A stretch of DNA of 64,000 nt from an uncultured Candidatus Saccharibacteria bacterium (GTDB lineage: Bacteria > Patescibacteriota > Minisyncoccia > Phycocordibacterales > Zambryskibacteraceae), in contig CAYHDI010000002.1 in the NCBI GenBank assembly GCA_964355645.1, forward strand, positions 11,452 to 75,451, given 5' to 3'. Numbering within the stretch: the stretch's first letter is position 1; the number at the start of each line of letters is the position of its first letter. Positions 14,793-47,781 of this stretch are shown here, one piece after another. The notes beneath the pieces are model-generated. The model had not been told where the DNA came from and did no database searches. It saw nothing but the letters and a program-made list of their open reading frames with translations. A program made the position numbers and the translations under genes.

Positions 14793-15182
14793 TCAAGCAA
14801 TCAAAAGCTTGATCTTTTGTTTTATCTCCACATAATCTTTTATGTCTAAAACCCCGATTTTATATTGTAAGCGTTTGGAATCTATCATTCTCAGTTGTGA
14901 AAGTATCACTGTATTAGAACCTCTATTCTCTAGACTAAAAGTAAAGTAGTATTCACCTTTTTTAGTTTTCTTTGTAAGTGGAATGGCCCAAAAACTTTCA
15001 TTATTAAATTTTCTTAACACAAGTACCGGACGACGGAACTCCTTACCCCTACCGTCTTCTTCAAATCCGATGTTGGCTCCGAGCGAGGCAAACCAAATTT
15101 CTCGTTCATGGAAGAAAGGCCTTTGTCTATCCTCGTGAATATCGCTTTTTTCTTTGTGCCATTCAGAAAAATCTTTTTTCAT
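14793..15182 (-). CDS. MazF/PemK-family mRNA interferase toxin-like protein
   Basis: ...EREIWFASLG...RRPVLVL...WAIPLT...TVILSQLRMIDSKRL..KIGVLD parallels MazF/NdoA in Bacillus (...RPVLVIQ...VILLEQIRTIDKQRLTDKI). It lies 16 bp downstream of ftsA. No upstream antitoxin gene is present. Confidence 0.6.
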   Translation of the reverse strand: MKKDFSEWHKEKSDIHEDRQRPFFHEREIWFASLGANIGFEEDGRGKEFRRPVLVLRKFNNESFWAIPLTKKTKKGEYYFTFSLENRGSNTVILSQLRMIDSKRLQYKIGVLDIKDYVEIKQKIKLLIA

Positions 15183-30582: not shown

Positions 30583-31230
30583 CTACTTGTAGAATCGTAC
30601 GCCGATTCGGAGACTCGAATCACCGAGCGATTTGAACGCGATGGTTCTCACCATTCCGAATTGCACAGTTTCCATCTCCGGACGAATGGTGAATTTTCCA
30701 GCTTGAGTTGCCACGACGTACGGGACGTCGAGCTCCTCGGCATTCACTTCCATCGTGTAGCCTTTCCGCACTTCTCGGGGAAGCGTCCATGACTTGCCGA
30801 ATGTATTCGGCTGAGCTGTGAACCAAAATGTGGTATCGCTTGGGAACTGTGGATGCGTCTTCAAGTATTCGGCCTGAGCCTGAGCTTTGGCCATTTCCGC
30901 CTTCTGGTACTTCCCGTTGACCCACGGCCACACGATGAAGATGACGACGAGAGCGAAAATGGTCCAGCCCGCGAACTTCTGGAACCACTTGTGCGTGATA
31001 ACCGTGCCAGCTTTTGTTCGGCGATTCTCGTCCCAGGCAATCCAGGAGATGAGAGCGAGTAAAGCAAGCACTACCGCGGTGATCCACGTCCAGTGCCAGA
31101 CTCTTGACCAATCCACCGAACCGATGAAAAGGCTAAGAATCATAACCGCAACGATGAGCCCGATGACTGCACCGCCGGCTTGGAGCCTCTGTTTTCTGTT
31201 CATATCCCCTCCACGGGGAAATAGGTTCAA
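30583..31230 (-). CDS. membrane protein with C-terminal soluble domain (possible NfeD-like partner of the SPFH protein); GC-rich
   Basis: It has four predicted TM helices and a C-terminal domain of roughly 90 aa. It shares an operon and GC content with the SPFH gene. Confidence 0.35.
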   Translation of the reverse strand: MNLFPRGGDMNRKQRLQAGGAVIGLIVAVMILSLFIGSVDWSRVWHWTWITAVVLALLALISWIAWDENRRTKAGTVITHKWFQKFAGWTIFALVVIFIVWPWVNGKYQKAEMAKAQAQAEYLKTHPQFPSDTTFWFTAQPNTFGKSWTLPREVRKGYTMEVNAEELDVPYVVATQAGKFTIRPEMETVQFGMVRTIAFKSLGDSSLRIGVRFYK

Positions 31231-31314
31231 CTTCGTCTTTGCCCATTATACGCCCAAATTATATTTTGTCAAGTATGAAAAAGACTGGGAGATTTTTTGC
31301 CCAGTCTATGCACA

Positions 31315-32445
31315 TTACTTCGACCCAACGAGTTGGGCTGTCTTGCCTCCAACCACGAGAGTAGTAAGAGTTTTGTTCTCTCCGATTGCCTCGGCGAAAC
31401 GAATCCCCGCAGCGTTCGGAATTGCTCCGAGCGGAATGAGTACTCGAGTGACGCGATCAGCATCAGCGGTGTTCACAACCTTCTGTGCCTCGGCTTTTCC
31501 CTCACCGGCGAGGATGACAAGTTTCTTATCCTTCTCGGCTCGAGCGATGGCTGCCTTGTTCTCGCGCTCCGTGGTTTCTTGGAGTTCGAGAAGCGTACGT
31601 GTCTTCTCGTCCACATCGATGCCAAGAAGATTCGTAGTTCTGACCGTGATTCCAATCTTTTCTTCTATTTCTCCCTGCTTATCCATCACAGCCTTGACGA
31701 GGTCGTGTTTGTTGGAGACATCACCTTGGATGAAGTACTCAGGTTCTTGATTTCCCGTCGTGTTGTTTACGGCTTCCATCACCATCGCTGTGAGCACGGC
31801 GTTGGGGTCGGCCATTCCCAAAACGGCATGAACCGGATATTTCATCGCGTACAACAAGTTGAATTGCAAATCGAGCTCGTATGAGCCCATGGTTTCCGCA
31901 CCACGCACATCCACAGCTTGCTCGCGCGAGTAGTAGATGAACTTGGTGGAGAAATCCTTGCCTACGATTGAGTACACGTCGCGGTCTCCATCCTTGCCCT
32001 TCTTGAATCTGATTTCATGAACCTGATTTAGACGGAGAGAACGACCCCAGCCAATCCAGTGGATGCCGAAGAGGTAGTGAAGGAGTCCATATTCCTTTTC
32101 ACCATCCTCGAAGCACCACTTGAATGGATCTGGGTCATCGTCATTCAAGCGTTGGCCTGGAACGCCGTGGATAACTTTGTCGAGCTCACCATCAATGAGA
32201 TTGGATGCATCGGTTGAATCACTTGACGACCCCCAAGTGACAAGTGCGAAAGTATTCGCCGGAATGAAGCACCACCAGATCTCGTTGTAAGCGAGAATCC
32301 AGATGGTTCCAAGCACTAGTGTTACTAGTGCAAGGACGATGAGAAGGGAAATGAAAAGCGCTATCATTCTGTGCTCCCTGTGGCCATAGCCACGGAGTAA
32401 TGTGAAATGTGCATGAATCTTGCCTGTCGCGATTTTATCATACAA
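31315..32445 (-). CDS. SPFH/Band-7 (stomatin/prohibitin/flotillin) domain protein; GC-rich
   Basis: It has an N-terminal TM helix, a band-7 core and a C-terminal ...ILAGEGKAEAQK... Ala/Glu-rich coiled coil, typical of flotillin-like proteins. Confidence 0.65.
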   Translation of the reverse strand: MYDKIATGKIHAHFTLLRGYGHREHRMIALFISLLIVLALVTLVLGTIWILAYNEIWWCFIPANTFALVTWGSSSDSTDASNLIDGELDKVIHGVPGQRLNDDDPDPFKWCFEDGEKEYGLLHYLFGIHWIGWGRSLRLNQVHEIRFKKGKDGDRDVYSIVGKDFSTKFIYYSREQAVDVRGAETMGSYELDLQFNLLYAMKYPVHAVLGMADPNAVLTAMVMEAVNNTTGNQEPEYFIQGDVSNKHDLVKAVMDKQGEIEEKIGITVRTTNLLGIDVDEKTRTLLELQETTERENKAAIARAEKDKKLVILAGEGKAEAQKVVNTADADRVTRVLIPLGAIPNAAGIRFAEAIGENKTLTTLVVGGKTAQLVGSK

Positions 32446-32501
32446 AATCTACGAAGTCAAATAAAAAATACCAAACAAAAGTCTGGAATTTTTTGCATTG
32501 T

Positions 32502-32581
32502 GCCGAGGAGAGGACTTGAACCCCCACCCCTTGCGGGACCAGTTCCTAAAACTGGCGTGTCTACCATTTCACCACCTCGGC
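32502..32581 (-). tRNA. tRNA-Leu (anticodon TAG)
   Basis: The reverse complement is gccgaggtggtgaaatggtagacacgccagtttTAGgaactgg... with a long variable arm; the T-arm is ggttcaagtcc. Confidence 0.75.
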
Positions 32582-32585
32582 AGGG

Positions 32586-32658
32586 TGCGCCCAGTAGGAG
32601 TCGAACCTACGACCATCTCCTTAAGAGGGAGCTGCTCTACCAACTGAGCTATGGGCGC
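32586..32658 (-). tRNA. tRNA-Lys (anticodon CTT)
   Basis: The reverse complement is gcgcccatagctcagttggtagagcagctccctCTTaaggag...ggttcgactcc. Confidence 0.7.
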
Positions 32659-32729
32659 AAAACTTTTGTAACTTACAAACAATACCTAAAAAACAATTCT
32701 TTTTCAATTATGATAATGTATTAAAGAGT

Positions 32730-32801
32730 GGCCTAGTCGCCAAGTGGTAAGGCAAAGCTCTGCAAAAGCTTTATACGGCGGTTCGATTCCGCCCTAGGCC
32801 T
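32730..32801 (+). tRNA. tRNA-Cys (anticodon GCA)
   Basis: ggcctagtcgccaagtggtaaggcaaagctctGCAaaagcttt...ggttcgattccgccctaggcct. Confidence 0.75.
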
Positions 32802-32837
32802 CCTGTTCAAGAAAGTTTTGTTGTGTAGAATTAGATA

Positions 32838-33551
32838 ATGATTGATCGTGAAAAAATTAAACCTCAACATCTCTGGTATTTTATAGGATTGATTGTAACC
32901 GATGGAAATCTAAGTAAAAGTGGACGACATATTATTCTGACTTCTAAAGATAGAGAGCATCTATATTTAATTAAGAAGATTCTAGGGCTTACAAATGTTA
33001 TTGGCAGAAAGACTAGGGCTAGTTCAGAAGATAGATTATATTCTACCCTTCAGTTTGGAGATATTCGTTTTTATAAATACTTACAGAGCATAGGCATAAC
33101 CCAGAAAAAATCTCTTACTCTTGGAAAGATTGCAATAGACAAAAAATATTTCTGCGATTTTTTGAGAGGGGTAATTGATGGTGATGGCTATATTACTAGA
33201 TGGAAACATAAAAATAATGGGTTAAATCAGTGGGCTTTGGGCATTGTCTCTGCGGCTCCCGTATTTATTTGTTGGTTAAAAAATGAAATAGAGATACAGT
33301 TTAAAGTAAGGGGAAGGTTACACATTTATCTACCAAAAGGAAAGAAAAACCCTATAAACACATTAAAATTTGGGAAACTTGCTGGTAAGGTGATTATAAA
33401 AAATGTTTATTATAAGAATTCTTTTTGTCTGGAAAGAAAAAGACTCAAATGTGAAGAGTGTTTACTAGATAGGAATCGAATGGTAAATTATGGGGGTGTC
33501 ATTCGCCCGGGTGCTGAAATCGGTAGACAGCCTCGACTTAAAATCGAGTGA
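32838..33551 (+). CDS. LAGLIDADG homing endonuclease (double-motif)
   Basis: Two LAGLIDADG motifs are present: YFIGLIVTDGNL and DFLRGVIDGDGYI. The gene is AT-rich. Its last roughly 45 nt read into the 5' half of tRNA-Leu(TAA). Confidence 0.75.
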   Translation: MIDREKIKPQHLWYFIGLIVTDGNLSKSGRHIILTSKDREHLYLIKKILGLTNVIGRKTRASSEDRLYSTLQFGDIRFYKYLQSIGITQKKSLTLGKIAIDKKYFCDFLRGVIDGDGYITRWKHKNNGLNQWALGIVSAAPVFICWLKNEIEIQFKVRGRLHIYLPKGKKNPINTLKFGKLAGKVIIKNVYYKNSFCLERKRLKCEECLLDRNRMVNYGGVIRPGAEIGRQPRLKIE

Positions 33552-33588
33552 GGGAAACCTTGTGTGGGTTCGAGTCCCACCCCGGGCA
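33505..33588 (+). tRNA. tRNA-Leu (anticodon TAA)
   Basis: gcccgggtgctgaaatcggtagacagcctcgactTAAaatcgag... has a long variable arm; the T-arm is gggttcgagtccc. Confidence 0.75.
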
Positions 33589-33592
33589 CATT

Positions 33593-33663
33593 GCGGGTAT
33601 GGTTTAGTGGTAGAATGCGACCTTCCCAAGGTTGAGACCCGAGTTCGATTCTCGGTACCCGCA
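33593..33663 (+). tRNA. tRNA-Gly (anticodon CCC)
   Basis: gcgggtatggtttagtggtagaatgcgaccttCCCaaggttg...gagttcgattctcggtacccgca. Confidence 0.7.
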
Positions 33664-33717
33664 CACTTCTGCAAGCTCAGTGTAAACTATTATTTTATTT
33701 CATTCGTAATCTCGTCC

Positions 33718-33756
33718 AATCTCTGACGGTTGCGTTCACCATAATCAATTTTCCAA
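33718..33756 (+). repeat. 39-bp perfect direct repeat, copy 1 (aatctctgacggttgcgttcaccataatcaattttccaa)
   Basis: It is identical to 34804-34842, which lies inside the rbfA 3' coding end. Confidence 0.85.
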
Positions 33757-33801
33757 GCCCTATGGAACTCTCTTGCATTAACAGGAACACAAGGAAGGAG
33801 A

Positions 33802-34716
33802 TTATTCAGTTTTTAGATTTTCTGTAAGACCAGAATTTGCAATAATTATTTGAATAATCTTAAGTAAATTCTCAAGTATAGGTACAATTCTTCTGTTTTC
33901 TTCCGCGATATCTTCCTCAGAAGGCAGTTTTCTAGTTCTCAAATATTTGTCACGGTTAGTGGAAAGATACTCAAAACAATAATTAGCTTCGTCAATTATT
34001 TTATTAAATTCCTTTTGTTGTTGTGGGGTTAAAGATGACTCATCTCGTATGTCGAACGAAGGGTCACGCACCATTCGTTCCAAAAGATTTAGGCTAAGAC
34101 TTTTGATATATTGAGCATATTCGATTGCTTTTGTGAGAGTTTGTTGAGAGACAGCAATTCTTTTTGCAAGGATTGTTATCCTATCTTCCTCACTTGCTTT
34201 AGGAAGTTCACTTCCAAGAAATTGTCCGGTGTAGCACCCGTATGAGAGCTTGTTTGTTATATCTCCCCCTATCTCGATTATTTGCTCCAAGAACGTCATA
34301 GGGTTTTGCTCTTTTGTGGTTTCATCTTTGATACGACTCATCTGATACGAACGGAGAATTTTAATATCTGTTCCCACTATCATCTTAAGTGTTACGTCTA
34401 CGTTAGCTCCATGCCCAAGGCGATCTGTAATAGTTCGGACCAAACCTTCAGTATCTATAGGATTGGTTACGACAGGATGTTTATCAGCGCCCTTTATCTG
34501 ATCTAATAATCTATCAACATACCCCTCTTGGATGGCCTTAAGCAACATTGGATTAATTGTTGCCTGTTCCATCTGTTCATGACGATGAGCAGCAGTTTCC
34601 AGAGTAAATTTGGGATCACGAAAATCTTCTTCTCTTAATGCCAGATACCGTGCTAATATCCTTGGCTCAATTTCAGGTACGGGTTCTTCAAGTTTTTCTT
34701 CATTCATATAACGCAT
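33802..34716 (-). CDS. hypothetical protein (304 aa), cargo of the direct-repeat-flanked insertion; no recognisable domain
   Basis: The complete ORF is AT-rich and co-oriented with infB-rbfA. Confidence 0.4.
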   Translation of the reverse strand: MRYMNEEKLEEPVPEIEPRILARYLALREEDFRDPKFTLETAAHRHEQMEQATINPMLLKAIQEGYVDRLLDQIKGADKHPVVTNPIDTEGLVRTITDRLGHGANVDVTLKMIVGTDIKILRSYQMSRIKDETTKEQNPMTFLEQIIEIGGDITNKLSYGCYTGQFLGSELPKASEEDRITILAKRIAVSQQTLTKAIEYAQYIKSLSLNLLERMVRDPSFDIRDESSLTPQQQKEFNKIIDEANYCFEYLSTNRDKYLRTRKLPSEEDIAEENRRIVPILENLLKIIQIIIANSGLTENLKTE

Positions 34717-34784
34717 TATAACATTATGATAAATAGTACACTACACGTAGAAATTTCTAGCAAGAAATTATCTGTGACCACAAA

Positions 34785-35105
34785 TCAAACCGAAAGTTTA
34801 TCTAATCTCTGACGGTTGCGTTCACCATAATCAATTTTCCAACGGAGATGGGGGATAATACCGATTTTGGATTTGTCGCGGACGAAATGCATAAACTCGC
34901 TTCCTTTTCTTTCTAAAAATTTCAACGCGGTGTCTTCCTGACTGTCGGGTAGGGTAGTGAAGTATAGGTCGGCCACTTTCCCAGAAGGATTAAGTTCTAC
35001 TCGAGTGATGGTGATGAGGGATGCGGGAGTAGATTCTCGGAGGACGAAGTCTGCAGCGAGTTGACGAATGATTTCAGCTGTTTTGTCTTTCTTGATTTGT
35101 TTCAT
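34785..35105 (-). CDS. rbfA: ribosome-binding factor A
   Basis: Its 106 aa read ...ITITRVELNPSGKVADLYFTTL... It lies downstream of infB. The 3' end contains direct-repeat copy 2. Confidence 0.75.
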   Translation of the reverse strand: MKQIKKDKTAEIIRQLAADFVLRESTPASLITITRVELNPSGKVADLYFTTLPDSQEDTALKFLERKGSEFMHFVRDKSKIGIIPHLRWKIDYGERNRQRLDKLSV

Positions 35106-35124
35106 TTATAGTGAGTTTACCGAA

Positions 35125-36672
35125 CTATTTGGTCACCTTGATTATCTCTTCAAACATATCGCCTGGAGCAATTTCAATTTTCGATTCAATCATCGCGCCG
35201 AATTCACTACCTTCGGATACTTTGTCTACATCAACTTTATTTATCTGAAGCTCCTTCACTACTCCCTTACTTATTTCTTCTTCTCGTCTAGAAATTCTCA
35301 CTTGACCTCCAACCTTGATTGTCCCCGAGAGGACTCGGGCTCCCAACACTTGCTTGTCTTTGGTGGCACTAAAAATTTTTAAAACTTTCGCACTTCCACT
35401 AACTTCTTCGACCTCGATTCGAGGTTCGTGTTCGTTCAAAAGTTCTGTGATTCGCTCGGTCAATTTATAAATCACGTCGAATGATTCGATGTTTACACCC
35501 GAGCGTTCGGCGAGCGCGCGAGCCTGCGCATCAATTTTTGTGTGGAAAGCGAAGATGATGGTGCCGGGCATAGTCATAGCTGAATGGATATCATTTTCTC
35601 CGACAGTTCCTACCGCTTCGAGGATGATTTGAGGCACGATGCGCTCCTTCGAAAGTTTTTTAATCTCATAAACAATTGCTTCTAGACTTCCGGACACATC
35701 GGCTTTTATAATGATTGGTAGGGTAGACATATCTTCATCAATCTTCTGATTCTTTTTGCACTTGGCATTCTTGTTCGCTTCGCTTAGGGCATAAAATTCA
35801 GCTGCTTTTTTGTTTTCGAAAGTCTCGAAGACTGCTCCGACTGGGGGCATGAAATTCCAGCCAACAATTTGTACTGGGCTTGAGAACGAAAGTGATTCTT
35901 GTTCATTTCCATTTGAATCCAAAATAAATCGAATAGGAGCGATGGCTCCCACTGAAGCAGCGACCATGCCTTTCTTCACTGTTCCATCCTTAATTATTCC
36001 GACCGTAGTGATGCCTCTTTTTGAATCGAGGTGACTTTCGACGATAATGCCCATACCCCATCTTTCGCTGTGGCCCACGAATCGCTCAATGTCTGCGACG
36101 AGAAGTATCATGTCTAGAAGTTCTCTAATCCCTTCACCGGTTTTGGCCGAAGTTAGGACAATAGGAACATCACCGCCGTAGCCTTCCACATAAATTCCGT
36201 TCTCAGCGAGAGACTGCTTGACCATTTCAACATTCGCGCTCGGCTTATCAATCTTGGTAACCGCAATAATGAAAGGGAGTTCGGCTTCTTTGATTTTTGA
36301 ATAAGCCTCGAGAGTTTGATGTTTGACTGCGTCTTCGGCCGAGACCACGAGCACCGCAATATCTGCCACGTTCGCTCCGCGTGCCCGAATTCCTTTGAAA
36401 GCTTCGTGTCCGGGAGTATCGAGGAAAGTAATCTTCGCTTTCACACCATTTTCTCTTGAATGTTCTACTTCATATACACTGACGTGTTGGGTAATCCCGC
36501 CGGCTTCGCCTTCGACCACCTTTGTCTTTCGAATAAAGTCTAGGAGAGTCGACTTTCCATGATCAATATGACCCATGACGGCGACCACAGGGGCTCGTGT
36601 TTCATCATCGTTTGTATGAATAGAATCAATCATAGGTGGCCATACCTTATCATATTTTAGTTGCAAAAACAC
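35125..36672 (-). CDS. infB: translation initiation factor IF-2 (short form lacking the N-terminal domains)
   Basis: The G-domain is [17 protein letters not shown]...DTPGHEAF... The protein is 515 aa. Confidence 0.9.
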
Positions 36673-42996: not shown

Positions 42997-43569
42997 TTCT
43001 TTTCTAATCCAATTTCTTTTATAAAACTCAATGCGTTTTTATGAATACGAAATGTAAATTTCAATCTCTGTTTGTCCAGATTTAATTTTTGTTCTGAAAA
43101 TTTATAATTTAAATTTTTAAGCATTGTTTCTACACTATTTGCCAGACTTGGAATTTGAGTTACAAAATTCGCGGTTAGATACCCTCTATCCTTATATAGA
43201 ACCATCTGTCTCAAAAAGCCCGCATAGACAATGTTTACTTAGTTTTTTATTTATTAAAATCCATTTTGGCACTCGTACTGATTGTTTTAATTTTGGGCCA
43301 CCTTTTGCTTTCCATCCCAGTACTTTTTCCCAGTCGTTTGAATAGCAATAAATATCCATGGCCGTATCTTGGCGATTAATTCTGCCCACTTTGTTGTTTG
43401 GAGCAACTATATGTAATGCGCTCTCTATTTTTCTGATTAGATGTGGATATTTTGTGTCACAAGTTATACGTAATCTAACCGCTCTACCGTTGGGATTGCT
43501 CAGATTTCCGTCTCCAAGTGCTACACCAATAATGTAAGCGAGCTTGGGTTTATTGGAAGTATTTAGCAT
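42993..43569 (-). pseudogene. LAGLIDADG homing endonuclease, frameshifted into two ORFs (43192-43569 and 42993-43214)
   Basis: The N-terminal ORF has YIIGVALGDGNL ... GLFETDGSI, then a stop. The +1 frame continues with a C-terminal part homologous to the intact LAGLIDADG protein at 32838. The gene starts 2 nt after the tRNA-Leu(CAA) 3' end. Confidence 0.6.
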
Positions 43570-43571
43570 TG

Positions 43572-43654
43572 TGCCGGGGGGGAGACTTGAACTCCCATGA
43601 GCTTGCGCTCACAGCATTTTGAGTGCTGCATGTCTACCATTTCATCACCCCGGC
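43572..43654 (-). tRNA. tRNA-Leu (anticodon CAA)
   Basis: The reverse complement is gccggggtgatgaaatggtagacatgcagcactCAAaatgctg... with a long variable arm; the T-arm is gagttcaagtctc. Confidence 0.75.
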
Positions 43655-46917: not shown

Positions 46918-47781
46918 CTAGAAAGTCTTTCTCACCTCGCCCAATTCTTCACAAATCAACCCCTTAATTTCAAGGAGTGAAAGGATGGCGTTCGCTTTTG
47001 AAGTATCAAATTTACTCTTGCGGATAAGTTCATCGCGTGAGGCGGGGGATTTCAAAATTTCAATAAAAACTTTTTCTTCATTGGTCAGGTCATTCATATC
47101 AAAAAGGGTTTTGTCTTCATCCCTTGATTTTAATCCGAGAAGTTCTAAAACATCTTTCGAATCTCGAATGAGTGCCGCACCGAGGCGAATAAGCATATGC
47201 GGACCATCGGATGATGGGGAATTAATCGGACCCGGCACACAACCAACTTCTCGATTGTATTCTGTGGCCAGGCGACTCGTGATTAAGGTGCCGGATTTCA
47301 TCGTGGCTTCTATCACAATAGTTGCGTGGCACATGCCGGCCATGATTCTGTTCCTTTTTGGAAAGCTCCACAACGTAGCCTTCATTTCATCCGGATATTC
47401 AGAAATTAATCCACCTCCGTTTTCAATAATTTCTCTGGCCAATTCCACATGAGCTCTTGGATGAATAGCCGAGTCTGAAATCCCCGAACCGGGTATGGCT
47501 ATTGTTTGTAATCCATTTTTCAAAGCAGCACGATGAGCAATAGAATCTATTCCAAGAGCAAGCCCAGAGATAATAGTGACAGGGTAGCCGGACAATCCAG
47601 CAATAATCGATTCACACATTTCTCTTCCATATCCGCTGTATTTGCGGGTACCAACGATGGCCAATAGTTTGTTACCCTCCTTCGGTAATTCACCTCGAAG
47701 ACGAAGCTTTTTCGGTGGGTCGTTTATTTCTTTGAGCAATTCAGGGAAATTTTCAAAGTTCAAATCGTGGATTTCATTCAT
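46918..47781 (-). CDS. dprA: DNA processing protein DprA (Smf)
   Basis: The Rossmann-like core reads LLAIVGTRKYSGYGREMCE...VTIISGLALGIDSIAHRAAL..GLQTIAIPGSGI. Confidence 0.8.
   Translation of the reverse strand: MNEIHDLNFENFPELLKEINDPPKKLRLRGELPKEGNKLLAIVGTRKYSGYGREMCESIIAGLSGYPVTIISGLALGIDSIAHRAALKNGLQTIAIPGSGISDSAIHPRAHVELAREIIENGGGLISEYPDEMKATLWSFPKRNRIMAGMCHATIVIEATMKSGTLITSRLATEYNREVGCVPGPINSPSSDGPHMLIRLGAALIRDSKDVLELLGLKSRDEDKTLFDMNDLTNEEKVFIEILKSPASRDELIRKSKFDTSKANAILSLLEIKGLICEELGEVRKTF

What the first reader, a model, noticed from the sequence alone, without database searches (positions are those of the whole stretch)
33718..34842. A 1.1-kb insertion with perfect 39-bp direct repeats at the 3' end of rbfA, carrying one unknown 304-aa gene and a replacement rbfA C-terminus
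The 39-mer aatctctgacggttgcgttcaccataatcaattttccaa occurs at 34804-34842, inside the last codons of rbfA (encoding WKIDYGERNRQRL), and again at 33718-33756. After copy 2 the rbfA frame ends ..QRLDKLSV-stop. After copy 1 the same frame would read ..QRLDEITNEIK-stop, which looks like the original gene end. This is the signature of a site-specific integrative element that targets a gene 3' end and restores it. Here the element carries a single AT-rich ORF (33802-34716) with no recognisable domain. No integrase is present, so mobilisation in trans or a decayed element is implied. The cargo gene is a candidate accessory or defence function.
Basis: seen in the sequence. Interest (0 to 1): 0.7.

Follow-up and report, generated by a model that had tools for sequence, protein, structure and literature searches.

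The report
Integrase-less mini-island in rbfA end
A 1.1-kb piece of foreign DNA carrying one gene of unknown function sits in the last codons of the ribosome-maturation gene rbfA of an uncultured groundwater bacterium and supplies a substitute gene end; it is present in some strains and absent in others, a well-documented but fairly ordinary small mobile island.

Summary
The 39-mer occurs exactly twice in the window (33718-33756 and 34804-34842; 42 nt with one mismatch), against 0 expected by chance.

It flanks a real insertion. Ten rbfA loci of other lineages and one near-identical conspecific contig (L010) carry a single copy. In them RbfA ends ..DEI[TS].. directly before the tRNA cluster. 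Six independent assemblies carry the filled site.

The element supplies an rbfA-like end. Its tail D-K-L-S-V-stop re-creates the C-terminal motif D-[EKT]-[LI]-[SGT] shared by nearly all of 119 RbfA relatives.

The rbfA 3' half next to the insert is a patchwork of purely synonymous variants among near-identical strains. A third haplotype (L019) has the same element (99.9% identical) in a different rbfA allele.

There is no integrase, transposase, nuclease, terminal inverted repeat or intron RNA. ORF304 is a real, all-helical protein of a very rare family (six members) with no sequence or fold match.

Best reading (0.5): a decayed or trans-mobilised att-flanked integrative islet, CIME-like, that now spreads between strains by homologous recombination.

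Two things are unexplained: the repeats are perfect despite high local polymorphism, and any exchange point lies at the gene-distal edge of the repeat.

It is a new member of a known kind, of moderate interest.

The parts
34785..35105 (-). rbfA, filled allele (106 aa, ends ..QRLDKLSV*)
   Evidence: Pfam RBFA 5.6e-11. It follows infB at 35125..36672(-). The exact protein P0007 is on 6 contigs from NCBI, ENA and Logan.
34806..34983 (-). Divergent, purely synonymous tract in the rbfA 3' half next to the insert (mosaic or co-converted flank)
   Evidence: Compared with the conspecific empty contig L010 there are 0 mismatches in window 35420-34984 and 26 mismatches in 34983-34806, with the protein unchanged. 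Such clustering under a uniform spread has P about 1.7e-14. L019 shows a third, mosaic allele.
34804..34842 (-). Repeat copy 2 (attL-like), inside rbfA codons W89-L101; 42 nt if 34801-34803 are included
34785..34803 (-). Element-supplied replacement rbfA end (..D-K-L-S-V-stop)
   Evidence: K-L-S fits the motif D-[EKT]-[LI]-[SGT] seen in nearly all of 119 RbfA relatives. Random DNA of the element's composition fits in 0.4% of trials. The tail is homologous codon by codon to the native tail (AAA CTT TCG against GAG ATT ACG). Native DKLS* and DELSV* ends exist in other Parcubacteria.
34717..34784 (-). Leader of ORF304. It holds an extended -10 (TGTTATAAT, 34723-34715) and a 12-nt palindrome TAGAAATTTCTA (34748-34759). 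Promoter function is inferred only.
   Evidence: Read from the sequence. The consensus scan found no full -35/-10 pair and no terminator between rbfA and ORF304.
33802..34716 (-). ORF304 (304 aa; 301 aa from the second ATG at 34707), the single cargo gene: an all-alpha protein of an unnamed rare family
   Evidence: Four distant full-length homologs (E 3e-14 to 1.6e-4) plus one tandem paralog in L007 (3e-08). AF2 on a 5-sequence alignment gave pLDDT 76 and pTM 0.77, with 11 helices. No family, PDB-sequence or fold match. GC3 is 0.29, against 0.33-0.50 for housekeeping genes.
33757..33801 (-). Element-proper spacer between the ORF304 stop and copy 1 (P-arm-like); no similarity to rbfA
33718..33756 (-). 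Repeat copy 1 (attR-like); 42 nt if 33715-33717 are included
   Evidence: It carries the same 6-7 differences from L010 as copy 2.
33690..33717 (-). Displaced original rbfA end (..D-E-I-T-N-E-I-K-stop), now untranslated
   Evidence: Identical to the end of the intact rbfA in L010. It matches the ..DEIT/S.. ends of L002-L005 and L011-L014.
33593..33664 (+). tRNA-Gly(ccc), convergent neighbour of the ancestral rbfA end
   Evidence: ARAGORN and Rfam tRNA. The same neighbour is found in L003, L004, L013 and L021.

Best explanation
The unit is one repeat plus 1,044 bp (33757-34842). It is a strain-variable mini-island inserted into the last codons of rbfA in a groundwater Parcubacteria/Patescibacteria genome.

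Its rbfA-proximal end carries an rbfA-like tail (..L-D-K-L-S-V-stop) that re-creates the conserved C-terminal motif. RbfA therefore stays functional, while the original end (..DEITNEIK-stop) is pushed 1.1 kb downstream.

The most likely origin is att-type recombination. An element carrying about 58 nt of rbfA-like sequence (attP-like) recombined with the rbfA 3' end (attB-like), with the exchange in or right of ..CAGAGATT.. The recombinase was either lost by decay or acts in trans. This makes the unit a CIME-like, integrase-less islet.

Today it passes between closely related strains together with flanking DNA by homologous recombination.

ORF304 is passive cargo: a soluble all-helical protein of a rare family associated with mobile elements. 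It is probably expressed from its own extended -10 promoter, possibly as a leaderless mRNA.

Shown: the insertion, the empty sites, the presence/absence polymorphism, the rbfA-like replacement end, the mosaic flanks, and the absence of any recombinase in the element.

Inferred: att-type recombination, the trans or lost integrase, the promoter, and the passive role of ORF304.
For: The repeat is exact and unique.

Single-copy empty sites occur in L002-L005, L011-L014 and L021, where RbfA ends ..DE[IL][ST]... L010 is a conspecific empty site: 100% identical over the upstream 437 nt and about 99.4% identical downstream of 33717 (5 mismatches in about 750 nt).

The filled site is seen in the window (which corresponds to the 162,569-bp NCBI contig that carries the exact RbfA) and in contigs L001, L017, L018, L019 and L020, from separate ENA/Logan samples or runs.

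The replacement tail fits the RbfA C-terminal motif (random expectation 0.4%) and is homologous to the native tail codon by codon. Native DKLS* and DELSV* tails exist in other Parcubacteria.

The same element (1 mismatch in about 970 nt) sits at the same position in two rbfA alleles that differ by about 16% in the adjacent 180 nt.

The element has low GC (0.372, against a window mean of 0.423) and low GC3.

There are no terminal inverted repeats, no intron or other Rfam family, and no recombinase, transposase or nuclease domain in ORF304.

Decayed integrative elements that keep attL and attR but have lost their integrase (CIMEs), and islands inserted in the ends of protein-coding genes, are established kinds (PMC5704250; PMC4482086; PMC8409611).
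Against: No integrase-bearing element uses this site in any of 10 relatives. No rbfA-end fragment or junction of this element occurs in IMG/VR.

No integrase was seen in the 64-kb window. This rests on reading the N-termini of 52 ORFs by eye and on Pfam scans of 15 ORFs. The rest of the genome was not available.

The two copies are 39/39 identical, although the same 39 nt differ at 6-8 synonymous sites between conspecific alleles. An element-borne copy would have to match the host allele by coincidence or by descent.

In L019 the rbfA-side copy is of the chromosomal type up to window coordinate 34812. The exchange must therefore lie at the gene-distal edge of the repeat, so most of the repeat has no role in restoring the gene. 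This differs from the usual tRNA-type att design.

L010 and L019 are single contigs; L010 is low-coverage (cov 3 by its name).
Confidence: 0.5

Rival explanations
1. A one-off illegitimate or homology-facilitated recombination. Foreign DNA taken up by natural transformation was anchored by homology in rbfA, and its other end was joined illegitimately 39 nt upstream. This duplicated the recipient's own 39 nt. The resulting structure then spread only by homologous recombination of its flanks. No site-specific machinery was ever involved.
For: It explains the perfect repeat despite high local polymorphism. It explains the sharp gene-proximal repeat boundary and the rbfA-homologous tail, which would be the donor's native end. 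It fits the mosaic synonymous tracts, the lack of an integrase, and the lack of any other element at this site. A DprA-like ORF was read by eye at 46918..47781, which is compatible with competence.
Against: No lineage is known in which ORF304 follows rbfA natively; ORF304 is found only in this species. The same element sits at the same position in two different rbfA alleles, which needs an extra conversion event that stops within about 10 nt of the heterology.
Confidence: 0.22
2. An autonomous single-gene element. ORF304, or an unknown host enzyme, inserts the unit site-specifically by staggered cuts about 39-42 nt apart. This duplicates the target, as casposases and Cas1-Cas2 duplicate theirs.
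For: It explains the perfect 39-nt repeat in the window haplotype. It is also compatible with L019's repeat being of that strain's own allele type. ORF304 is the only gene on the unit and its fold matches nothing known.
Against: The DNA just after the repeat is homologous to the native rbfA tail, which a pure target duplication does not predict. ORF304 homologs elsewhere are not flanked by direct repeats. They sit in operon-like settings beside TrmB-family regulators. The only invariant polar residues are one His and one Arg, and no nuclease or integrase motif is present. No known enzyme makes site-specific duplications of this kind without Cas1.
Confidence: 0.07
3. A free-standing homing-endonuclease-like selfish gene. 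ORF304 cuts empty rbfA ends, and repair copies the element together with a co-conversion tract.
For: A sharply bounded, purely synonymous divergent tract lies next to the insert. The neighbourhood is rich in homing-endonuclease ORFs: LAGLIDADG at 32838..33551 and HNH at the same tRNA gap in L013 (read by eye).
Against: ORF304 has no nuclease domain or fold. The insertion does not destroy the target: copy 1 plus the displaced tail keeps 39 nt upstream and everything downstream of the insertion point intact. A filled genome would therefore remain cleavable. L019 carries the element with the 'susceptible' allele type.
Confidence: 0.05
4. An assembly artefact or chimera, either of the filled or of the empty form.
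For: L010 is a short, low-coverage contig (cov 3 by its name); L019 is also a short single contig.
Against: The filled form is 99.9-100% identical in four contigs from separate samples or runs (L001, L018, L020 and the window) and 98.7% in a low-coverage fifth, L017. L010's core has allele-specific bases found in neither window copy, so it is not a collapse of the repeats. All ten other lineages share the empty architecture.
Confidence: 0.01

Closest known systems
CIMEs (cis-mobilizable elements): decayed ICEs or IMEs that keep attL and attR but have lost their integration and transfer genes. One example sits at the fda 3' end in Streptococcus thermophilus. The definition is from PMC5704250; the fda example is from my own knowledge.
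   Same: Flanked by direct repeats that include the end of a conserved gene. No integrase. Small cargo. Strain-variable.
   Different: No related integrase-bearing element is known at this site. The host is a Patescibacteria bacterium. The unit is extremely small, with one gene. The exchange point lies at the gene-distal edge of the repeat.
Genomic islands that integrate into the ends of protein-coding genes and restore them: the SGI1 family at the trmE 3' end (PMC8409611) and the dusA-specific islands (PMC4482086).
   Same: The target is the end of a conserved translation or RNA-related housekeeping gene. The element supplies a substitute gene end, and the displaced original end remains at the far junction.
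   Different: Those islands encode their own tyrosine integrase and are 10-100 kb long. Here there is no integrase and only 1.04 kb. rbfA is not a reported target: no paper in the library holds rbfA, attB and integrase together.
Tycheposon-type cargo islets and satellites next to tRNA genes in streamlined marine bacteria (recalled from memory, not checked here).
   Same: Small cargo units in a variable hot spot beside tRNA genes of a streamlined genome. Some lack their own recombinase.
   Different: The target here is a protein-coding gene, not a tRNA. No associated recombinase family was identified.
Co-conversion tracts beside homing introns and free-standing homing endonuclease genes (own knowledge).
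   Same: A sharply bounded tract of foreign-looking silent substitutions lies immediately next to the insert.
   Different: No endonuclease is present, and the target is not disrupted by the insertion. The tract is better read as ordinary homologous-recombination mosaicism.
Homology-facilitated illegitimate recombination in naturally transformable bacteria (own knowledge).
   Same: One homologous anchor and one illegitimate joint can insert foreign DNA with a local duplication. This would explain a perfect repeat made from recipient sequence.
   Different: It gives a unique event rather than a reusable site. Here the same element is seen in two rbfA allelic backgrounds.

Membership tests
Site-specific integrative element / genomic island (integrase type) | Direct repeats (att core) at both junctions | tested here: met
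   39/39 nt (41/42) repeat, unique in the window, 0 expected by chance.
Site-specific integrative element / genomic island (integrase type) | Unoccupied site with one repeat copy in relatives | tested here: met
   Ten other lineages and one conspecific contig carry a single copy.
Site-specific integrative element / genomic island (integrase type) | The element restores the interrupted gene end | tested here: met
   The tail DKLSV* fits the D-[EKT]-[LI]-[SGT] motif shared by nearly all of 119 relatives.
Site-specific integrative element / genomic island (integrase type) | Encodes a tyrosine or serine recombinase next to one att site | tested here: not met
   The only ORF has no recombinase domain. 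None was seen in the 64-kb window.
Site-specific integrative element / genomic island (integrase type) | Excision to a circle with attP and regeneration of attB | not testable with these tools
   This needs read-level data. The attP-type junction strings were absent from IMG/VR.
CIME (cis-mobilizable element) | attL and attR retained, integration and transfer genes lost | tested here: met
   Repeats are present and there is no recombinase.
CIME (cis-mobilizable element) | Derived from, or recombined by, a related ICE or IME that uses the same att site | tested here: not met
   No such element was found at rbfA in 10 relatives, or in viral contigs searched with a degenerate rbfA-end pattern. 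The search space was limited.
Transposon / IS / MITE | Terminal inverted repeats, a transposase and a short (2-15 bp) target duplication | tested here: not met
   No terminal inverted repeats, no transposase domain, and a repeat of 39-42 nt.
Free-standing homing endonuclease gene | LAGLIDADG, GIY-YIG, HNH, PD-(D/E)xK or similar nuclease domain | tested here: not met
   No Pfam or PHROG hit. The fold is a helical bundle with no match.
Free-standing homing endonuclease gene | Insertion or linked polymorphism makes the carrier immune to cleavage | tested here: not met
   An intact target is retained at copy 1 plus the tail. L019 carries the element with the empty-type allele.
Group I / group II intron | Conserved ribozyme structure | tested here: not met
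   An Rfam E-value search of 32000-36000 found only tRNAs.
Anti-phage defence gene (cargo) | Match to a known defence protein family | tested here: not met
   PADLOC gave 0 families at E up to 10.

The most novel reading that the evidence does not exclude
The unit is a minimal, self-sufficient insertion element. ORF304, founder of an undescribed all-helical protein family, would direct site-specific insertion into the rbfA end and make a 39-42-nt target duplication. The evidence does not exclude this. The repeat is perfect although the target is highly polymorphic. In the second filled haplotype the rbfA-side repeat is of that strain's own allele type almost to its edge.
Probability: 0.06. Interest if true: 0.85.

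Novelty: new member of a known kind. Interest (0 to 1): 0.4.

Why it matters
Mobile elements of Patescibacteria (CPR) are poorly known, and these streamlined genomes have few accessory genes. This locus is a clean case resolved at population level. Filled, empty and recombinant alleles all occur in public assemblies, several of them from groundwater samples labelled Hain_H43 and Hain_H52.

It shows how a one-gene islet can occupy an essential-gene end without harm, and how it moves between strains. It also names a previously unreported insertion target (the rbfA 3' end) and a new orphan protein family.

The value is mainly descriptive. It would rise sharply only if the repeat proved to be a target duplication made by ORF304.

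Tried and rejected
Readings considered and rejected:
- Group I or II intron or other structured RNA: Rfam found only tRNAs.
- IS or MITE: no terminal inverted repeats.
- Xer-exploiting element at a dif site: considered from memory and dropped. The target is inside a coding sequence and shows no dif-like dyad. No formal test was run.
- HEPN-like R-x4-6-H motif around the invariant GHG: the Arg is not conserved in alignment A1.
- Polarising the a-type and b-type alleles with outgroups: uninformative, 10 against 10.

Searches that found nothing:
- Phage or plasmid origin of ORF304: tblastn against INPHARED phages and PLSDB plasmids gave no match. IMG/VR scans with ORF304 and with a family alignment gave none.
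- Direct repeats around the distant homologs: none.
- An integrase in the window: none.

Technical dead ends:
- The single-sequence AF2 model was poor (pLDDT 45).
- The afdb50 library was not available.
- I tried to recover the attR junction of the L019 strain by exact look-ups of the neighbouring LAGLIDADG ORF and of a 58-aa ORF over the tRNAs. Nothing was on record. The LAGLIDADG protein is in the collection, but only on NCBI and ENA contigs.

Full report
1. OBSERVATION

The 39-mer is present exactly twice, at 33718-33756 and 34804-34842. There are no further copies at up to three mismatches, and none in 100 shuffles. The repeat extends to 42 nt with one mismatch.

Copy 2 lies in the last codons of an ORF at 34785..35105(-). 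This ORF matches Pfam RBFA (5.6e-11) and follows infB at 35125..36672(-). The frame after copy 2 reads ..QRLDKLSV-stop. The same frame after copy 1 reads ..QRLDEITNEIK-stop.

Between the copies lie 1,044 bp with one ORF, 33802..34716(-). tRNA-Gly(ccc) and four more tRNA genes follow.

2. IT IS AN INSERTION, AND IT IS POLYMORPHIC

I scanned genome and metagenome collections with RbfA and made one look-up. This gave ten loci from other lineages with RbfA 68-86% identical: L002-L005, L011-L014 and L021.

In every one, window sequence up to 34801 and window sequence from 33756 map onto the same stretch. Each has a single copy of the motif. RbfA ends ..DEI[TS].. or ..DELSV directly before the tRNA cluster.

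One contig, L010 (ENA ERZ1292629, named Hain-H43), is a conspecific empty site. It is 100% identical to the window over 437 nt of infB and rbfA, and about 99.4% identical downstream of 33717 (5 mismatches in about 750 nt). It has one repeat copy and an RbfA identical to the reconstructed ..DEITNEIK protein.

The filled form occurs in the window and in contigs L001, L017, L018, L019 and L020, from separate ENA or Logan samples or runs. The exact RbfA is also on a 162,569-bp NCBI contig. An assembly artefact is therefore excluded.

Names given by sources for RbfA relatives place the organism among Parcubacteria/Patescibacteria. The window otherwise holds ordinary housekeeping genes.

3. THE ELEMENT BRINGS AN rbfA-LIKE END

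In nearly all of 119 RbfA relatives the residues after ..QRLD follow [EKT]-[LI]-[SGT], and tails are 3-17 residues long. The element-supplied K-L-S-V-stop fits this motif. Random DNA of the element's composition fits it in 0.4% of trials.

Codon by codon the tail resembles the native one: AAA CTT TCG against GAG ATT ACG. Native ..DKLS* and ..DELSV* ends exist in other Parcubacteria. L021 is one example, where ..DELSV* directly precedes tRNA-Gly(ccc).

The rbfA-homologous segment at the rbfA-side junction is therefore about 58 nt long. It consists of a 39-nt identity block plus a diverged tail. This is the pattern expected from recombination between two diverged rbfA ends. It is not the pattern of a simple target duplication followed by drift.

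4. MOSAIC FLANKS

Window against L010: there are 0 mismatches in 35420-34984 and 26 in 34983-34806, all synonymous. The chance of such clustering is about 1.7e-14.

Both repeat copies in the window share the same differences from L010. Downstream of 33717 there are only five mismatches in about 750 nt.

A third haplotype, L019 (Logan SRR32696708), carries the element with one mismatch in about 970 nt. Its rbfA 3' half is L010-like, with an extra unique patch at 34887-34842. The L010-like type runs through the repeat as far as 34812.

Three points follow:
- The element is found at the identical position in two rbfA alleles that differ by about 16% locally.
- Any exchange point lies in the last 11 nt or fewer of the repeat (..CAGAGATTAGA).
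- The rbfA 3' half is a local recombination hot spot.

Outgroups could not polarise the alleles.

5. WHAT THE ELEMENT LACKS

There are no terminal inverted repeats. There is no Rfam family other than tRNAs. No consensus terminator lies between rbfA and ORF304.

No recombinase, transposase or nuclease domain is present. No integrase was recognised among the window's ORFs.

The junction strings and a degenerate rbfA-end pattern are absent from IMG/VR. ORF304 is absent from phage and plasmid collections.

6. THE CARGO GENE

The word-indexed search found only ORF304 itself. The exhaustive HMMER search found four full-length relatives of 290-302 aa, at 21-28% identity by alignment and E 3e-14 to 1.6e-4. 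A tandem paralog in L007 brings the family to six members.

Three of the four distant loci pair the gene with a divergently oriented TrmB-family regulator; these regulators are 46-83% identical to one another. One of those contigs also carries Bro-N and helicase genes. None of the loci shows flanking repeats.

The protein is real, rare and seemingly associated with mobile DNA. Nothing points to a recombination or defence role. Its GC3 (0.29) is well below that of the housekeeping genes.

An extended -10 (TGTTATAAT, 34723-34715) overlaps the first ATG. It would place a transcript start at the second ATG (34707), which suggests a leaderless mRNA. This is inference from the sequence only.

7. MECHANISM

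Best reading (0.5): an att-flanked, integrase-less islet. It would be the decayed remnant or satellite of an element that recombined its rbfA-like attP with the rbfA end. It now spreads between strains by homologous recombination of its flanks. It works like a CIME (PMC5704250) and like islands that restore the ends of protein-coding genes (PMC4482086, PMC8409611).

It fails two membership features. It has no integrase, and no integrase-bearing relative is known at this site.

Two facts fit this reading poorly:
- The repeats are 39/39 identical, although these 39 nt differ at 6-8 sites between conspecific alleles.
- The exchange lies at the gene-distal edge of the repeat, so most of the repeat has no part in restoring the gene.

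Rivals:
- A one-off homology-facilitated illegitimate insertion followed by spread through homologous recombination (0.22). It explains the perfect repeat, but it needs an unknown donor lineage and an extra conversion event to account for L019.
- Target-duplicating insertion by ORF304 or an unknown enzyme (0.07). The rbfA-homologous tail and the settings of the homologs speak against it.
- A homing-endonuclease-like gene (0.05). There is no nuclease, and the target survives intact at copy 1.
- Artefact (0.01).

The single most decisive datum is the attR repeat of the L019 strain. I could not retrieve it: the contig ends 73 nt short of the repeat.

8. VERDICT

The finding is a new member of a known kind: a mini integrative islet in an unreported target, in an understudied phylum, with an orphan cargo family. 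It is well documented at population level and of moderate interest (0.4). A small chance (about 0.06) remains that it works by an unknown target-duplicating mechanism.

Noticed in passing
window 32838-33551 (+): A LAGLIDADG homing-endonuclease ORF (Pfam LAGLIDADG_3 7.8e-08; phrog_4645 3.8e-24) lies between tRNA-Cys and tRNA-Leu(taa) and runs 47 nt into the tRNA-Leu gene. It has low GC (0.34; GC3 0.27). It is absent in L003 and L004, where the two tRNAs are 34 nt apart, and present in the conspecific L010. L013 has an HNH-type ORF (L013 7127-7603, read by eye) in the same tRNA gap.
   Followed up: partly
window 43192-43569 (-): A 125-aa ORF with a LAGLIDADG-like motif by eye (..IIGVALGDGNLS..) abuts tRNA-Leu(caa) at 43571-43654. 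It has no Pfam hit at E<=0.01 and GC3 0.29. The corresponding ~570-nt stretch is missing in L003 and L004, and largely in L005.
   Followed up: partly
window 32500-33664; loci L002, L011-L014: The five-tRNA cluster downstream of rbfA (Gly-ccc, Leu-taa, Cys, Lys, Leu-tag) is inverted as a block in L011, L012 and L014. It also holds different single-gene inserts between rbfA and tRNA-Gly: a 151-aa ORF in L002 and a 206-aa membrane ORF in L013. This is a variable hot spot.
   Followed up: partly
window 34806-34983: The rbfA 3' half is a patchwork of purely synonymous variants among three near-identical strains (a-, b- and c-type alleles), while the flanks are 99-100% identical. Short conversion patches are visible, for example L019-specific changes at 34887-34842.
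   Followed up: yes
window 25230-25997 (+): A low-GC islet (about 0.32) holds a DUF3800 ORF (Pfam 1.4e-07) right after gyrA. It may be another small insertion.
   Followed up: no
window 14793-15182 (-): A PemK/MazF-like toxin ORF (Pfam 7.5e-11) lies next to ftsA. No antitoxin partner was examined.
   Followed up: no
window 30583-32445 (-): Two membrane-protein ORFs have unusually high GC (0.50-0.53; GC3 0.57-0.65) for this 42% GC genome. One has a weak SPFH/Band 7 match. The region is conserved at 78% identity in L011.
   Followed up: no
L007 516-2203; L006, L008: Distant ORF304 homologs occur as a tandem pair of paralogs in L007 (BLASTP 3e-08 between ORF304 and the second gene). In three loci they lie next to a divergently oriented TrmB-family regulator.
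   Followed up: partly
window 34707-34759 (-): An extended -10 (TGTTATAAT, 34723-34715) overlaps the first ATG of ORF304, and the second ATG (34707) lies about 7 nt downstream, so the mRNA may be leaderless. A perfect 12-nt palindrome TAGAAATTTCTA at 34748-34759 could be an operator.
   Followed up: no
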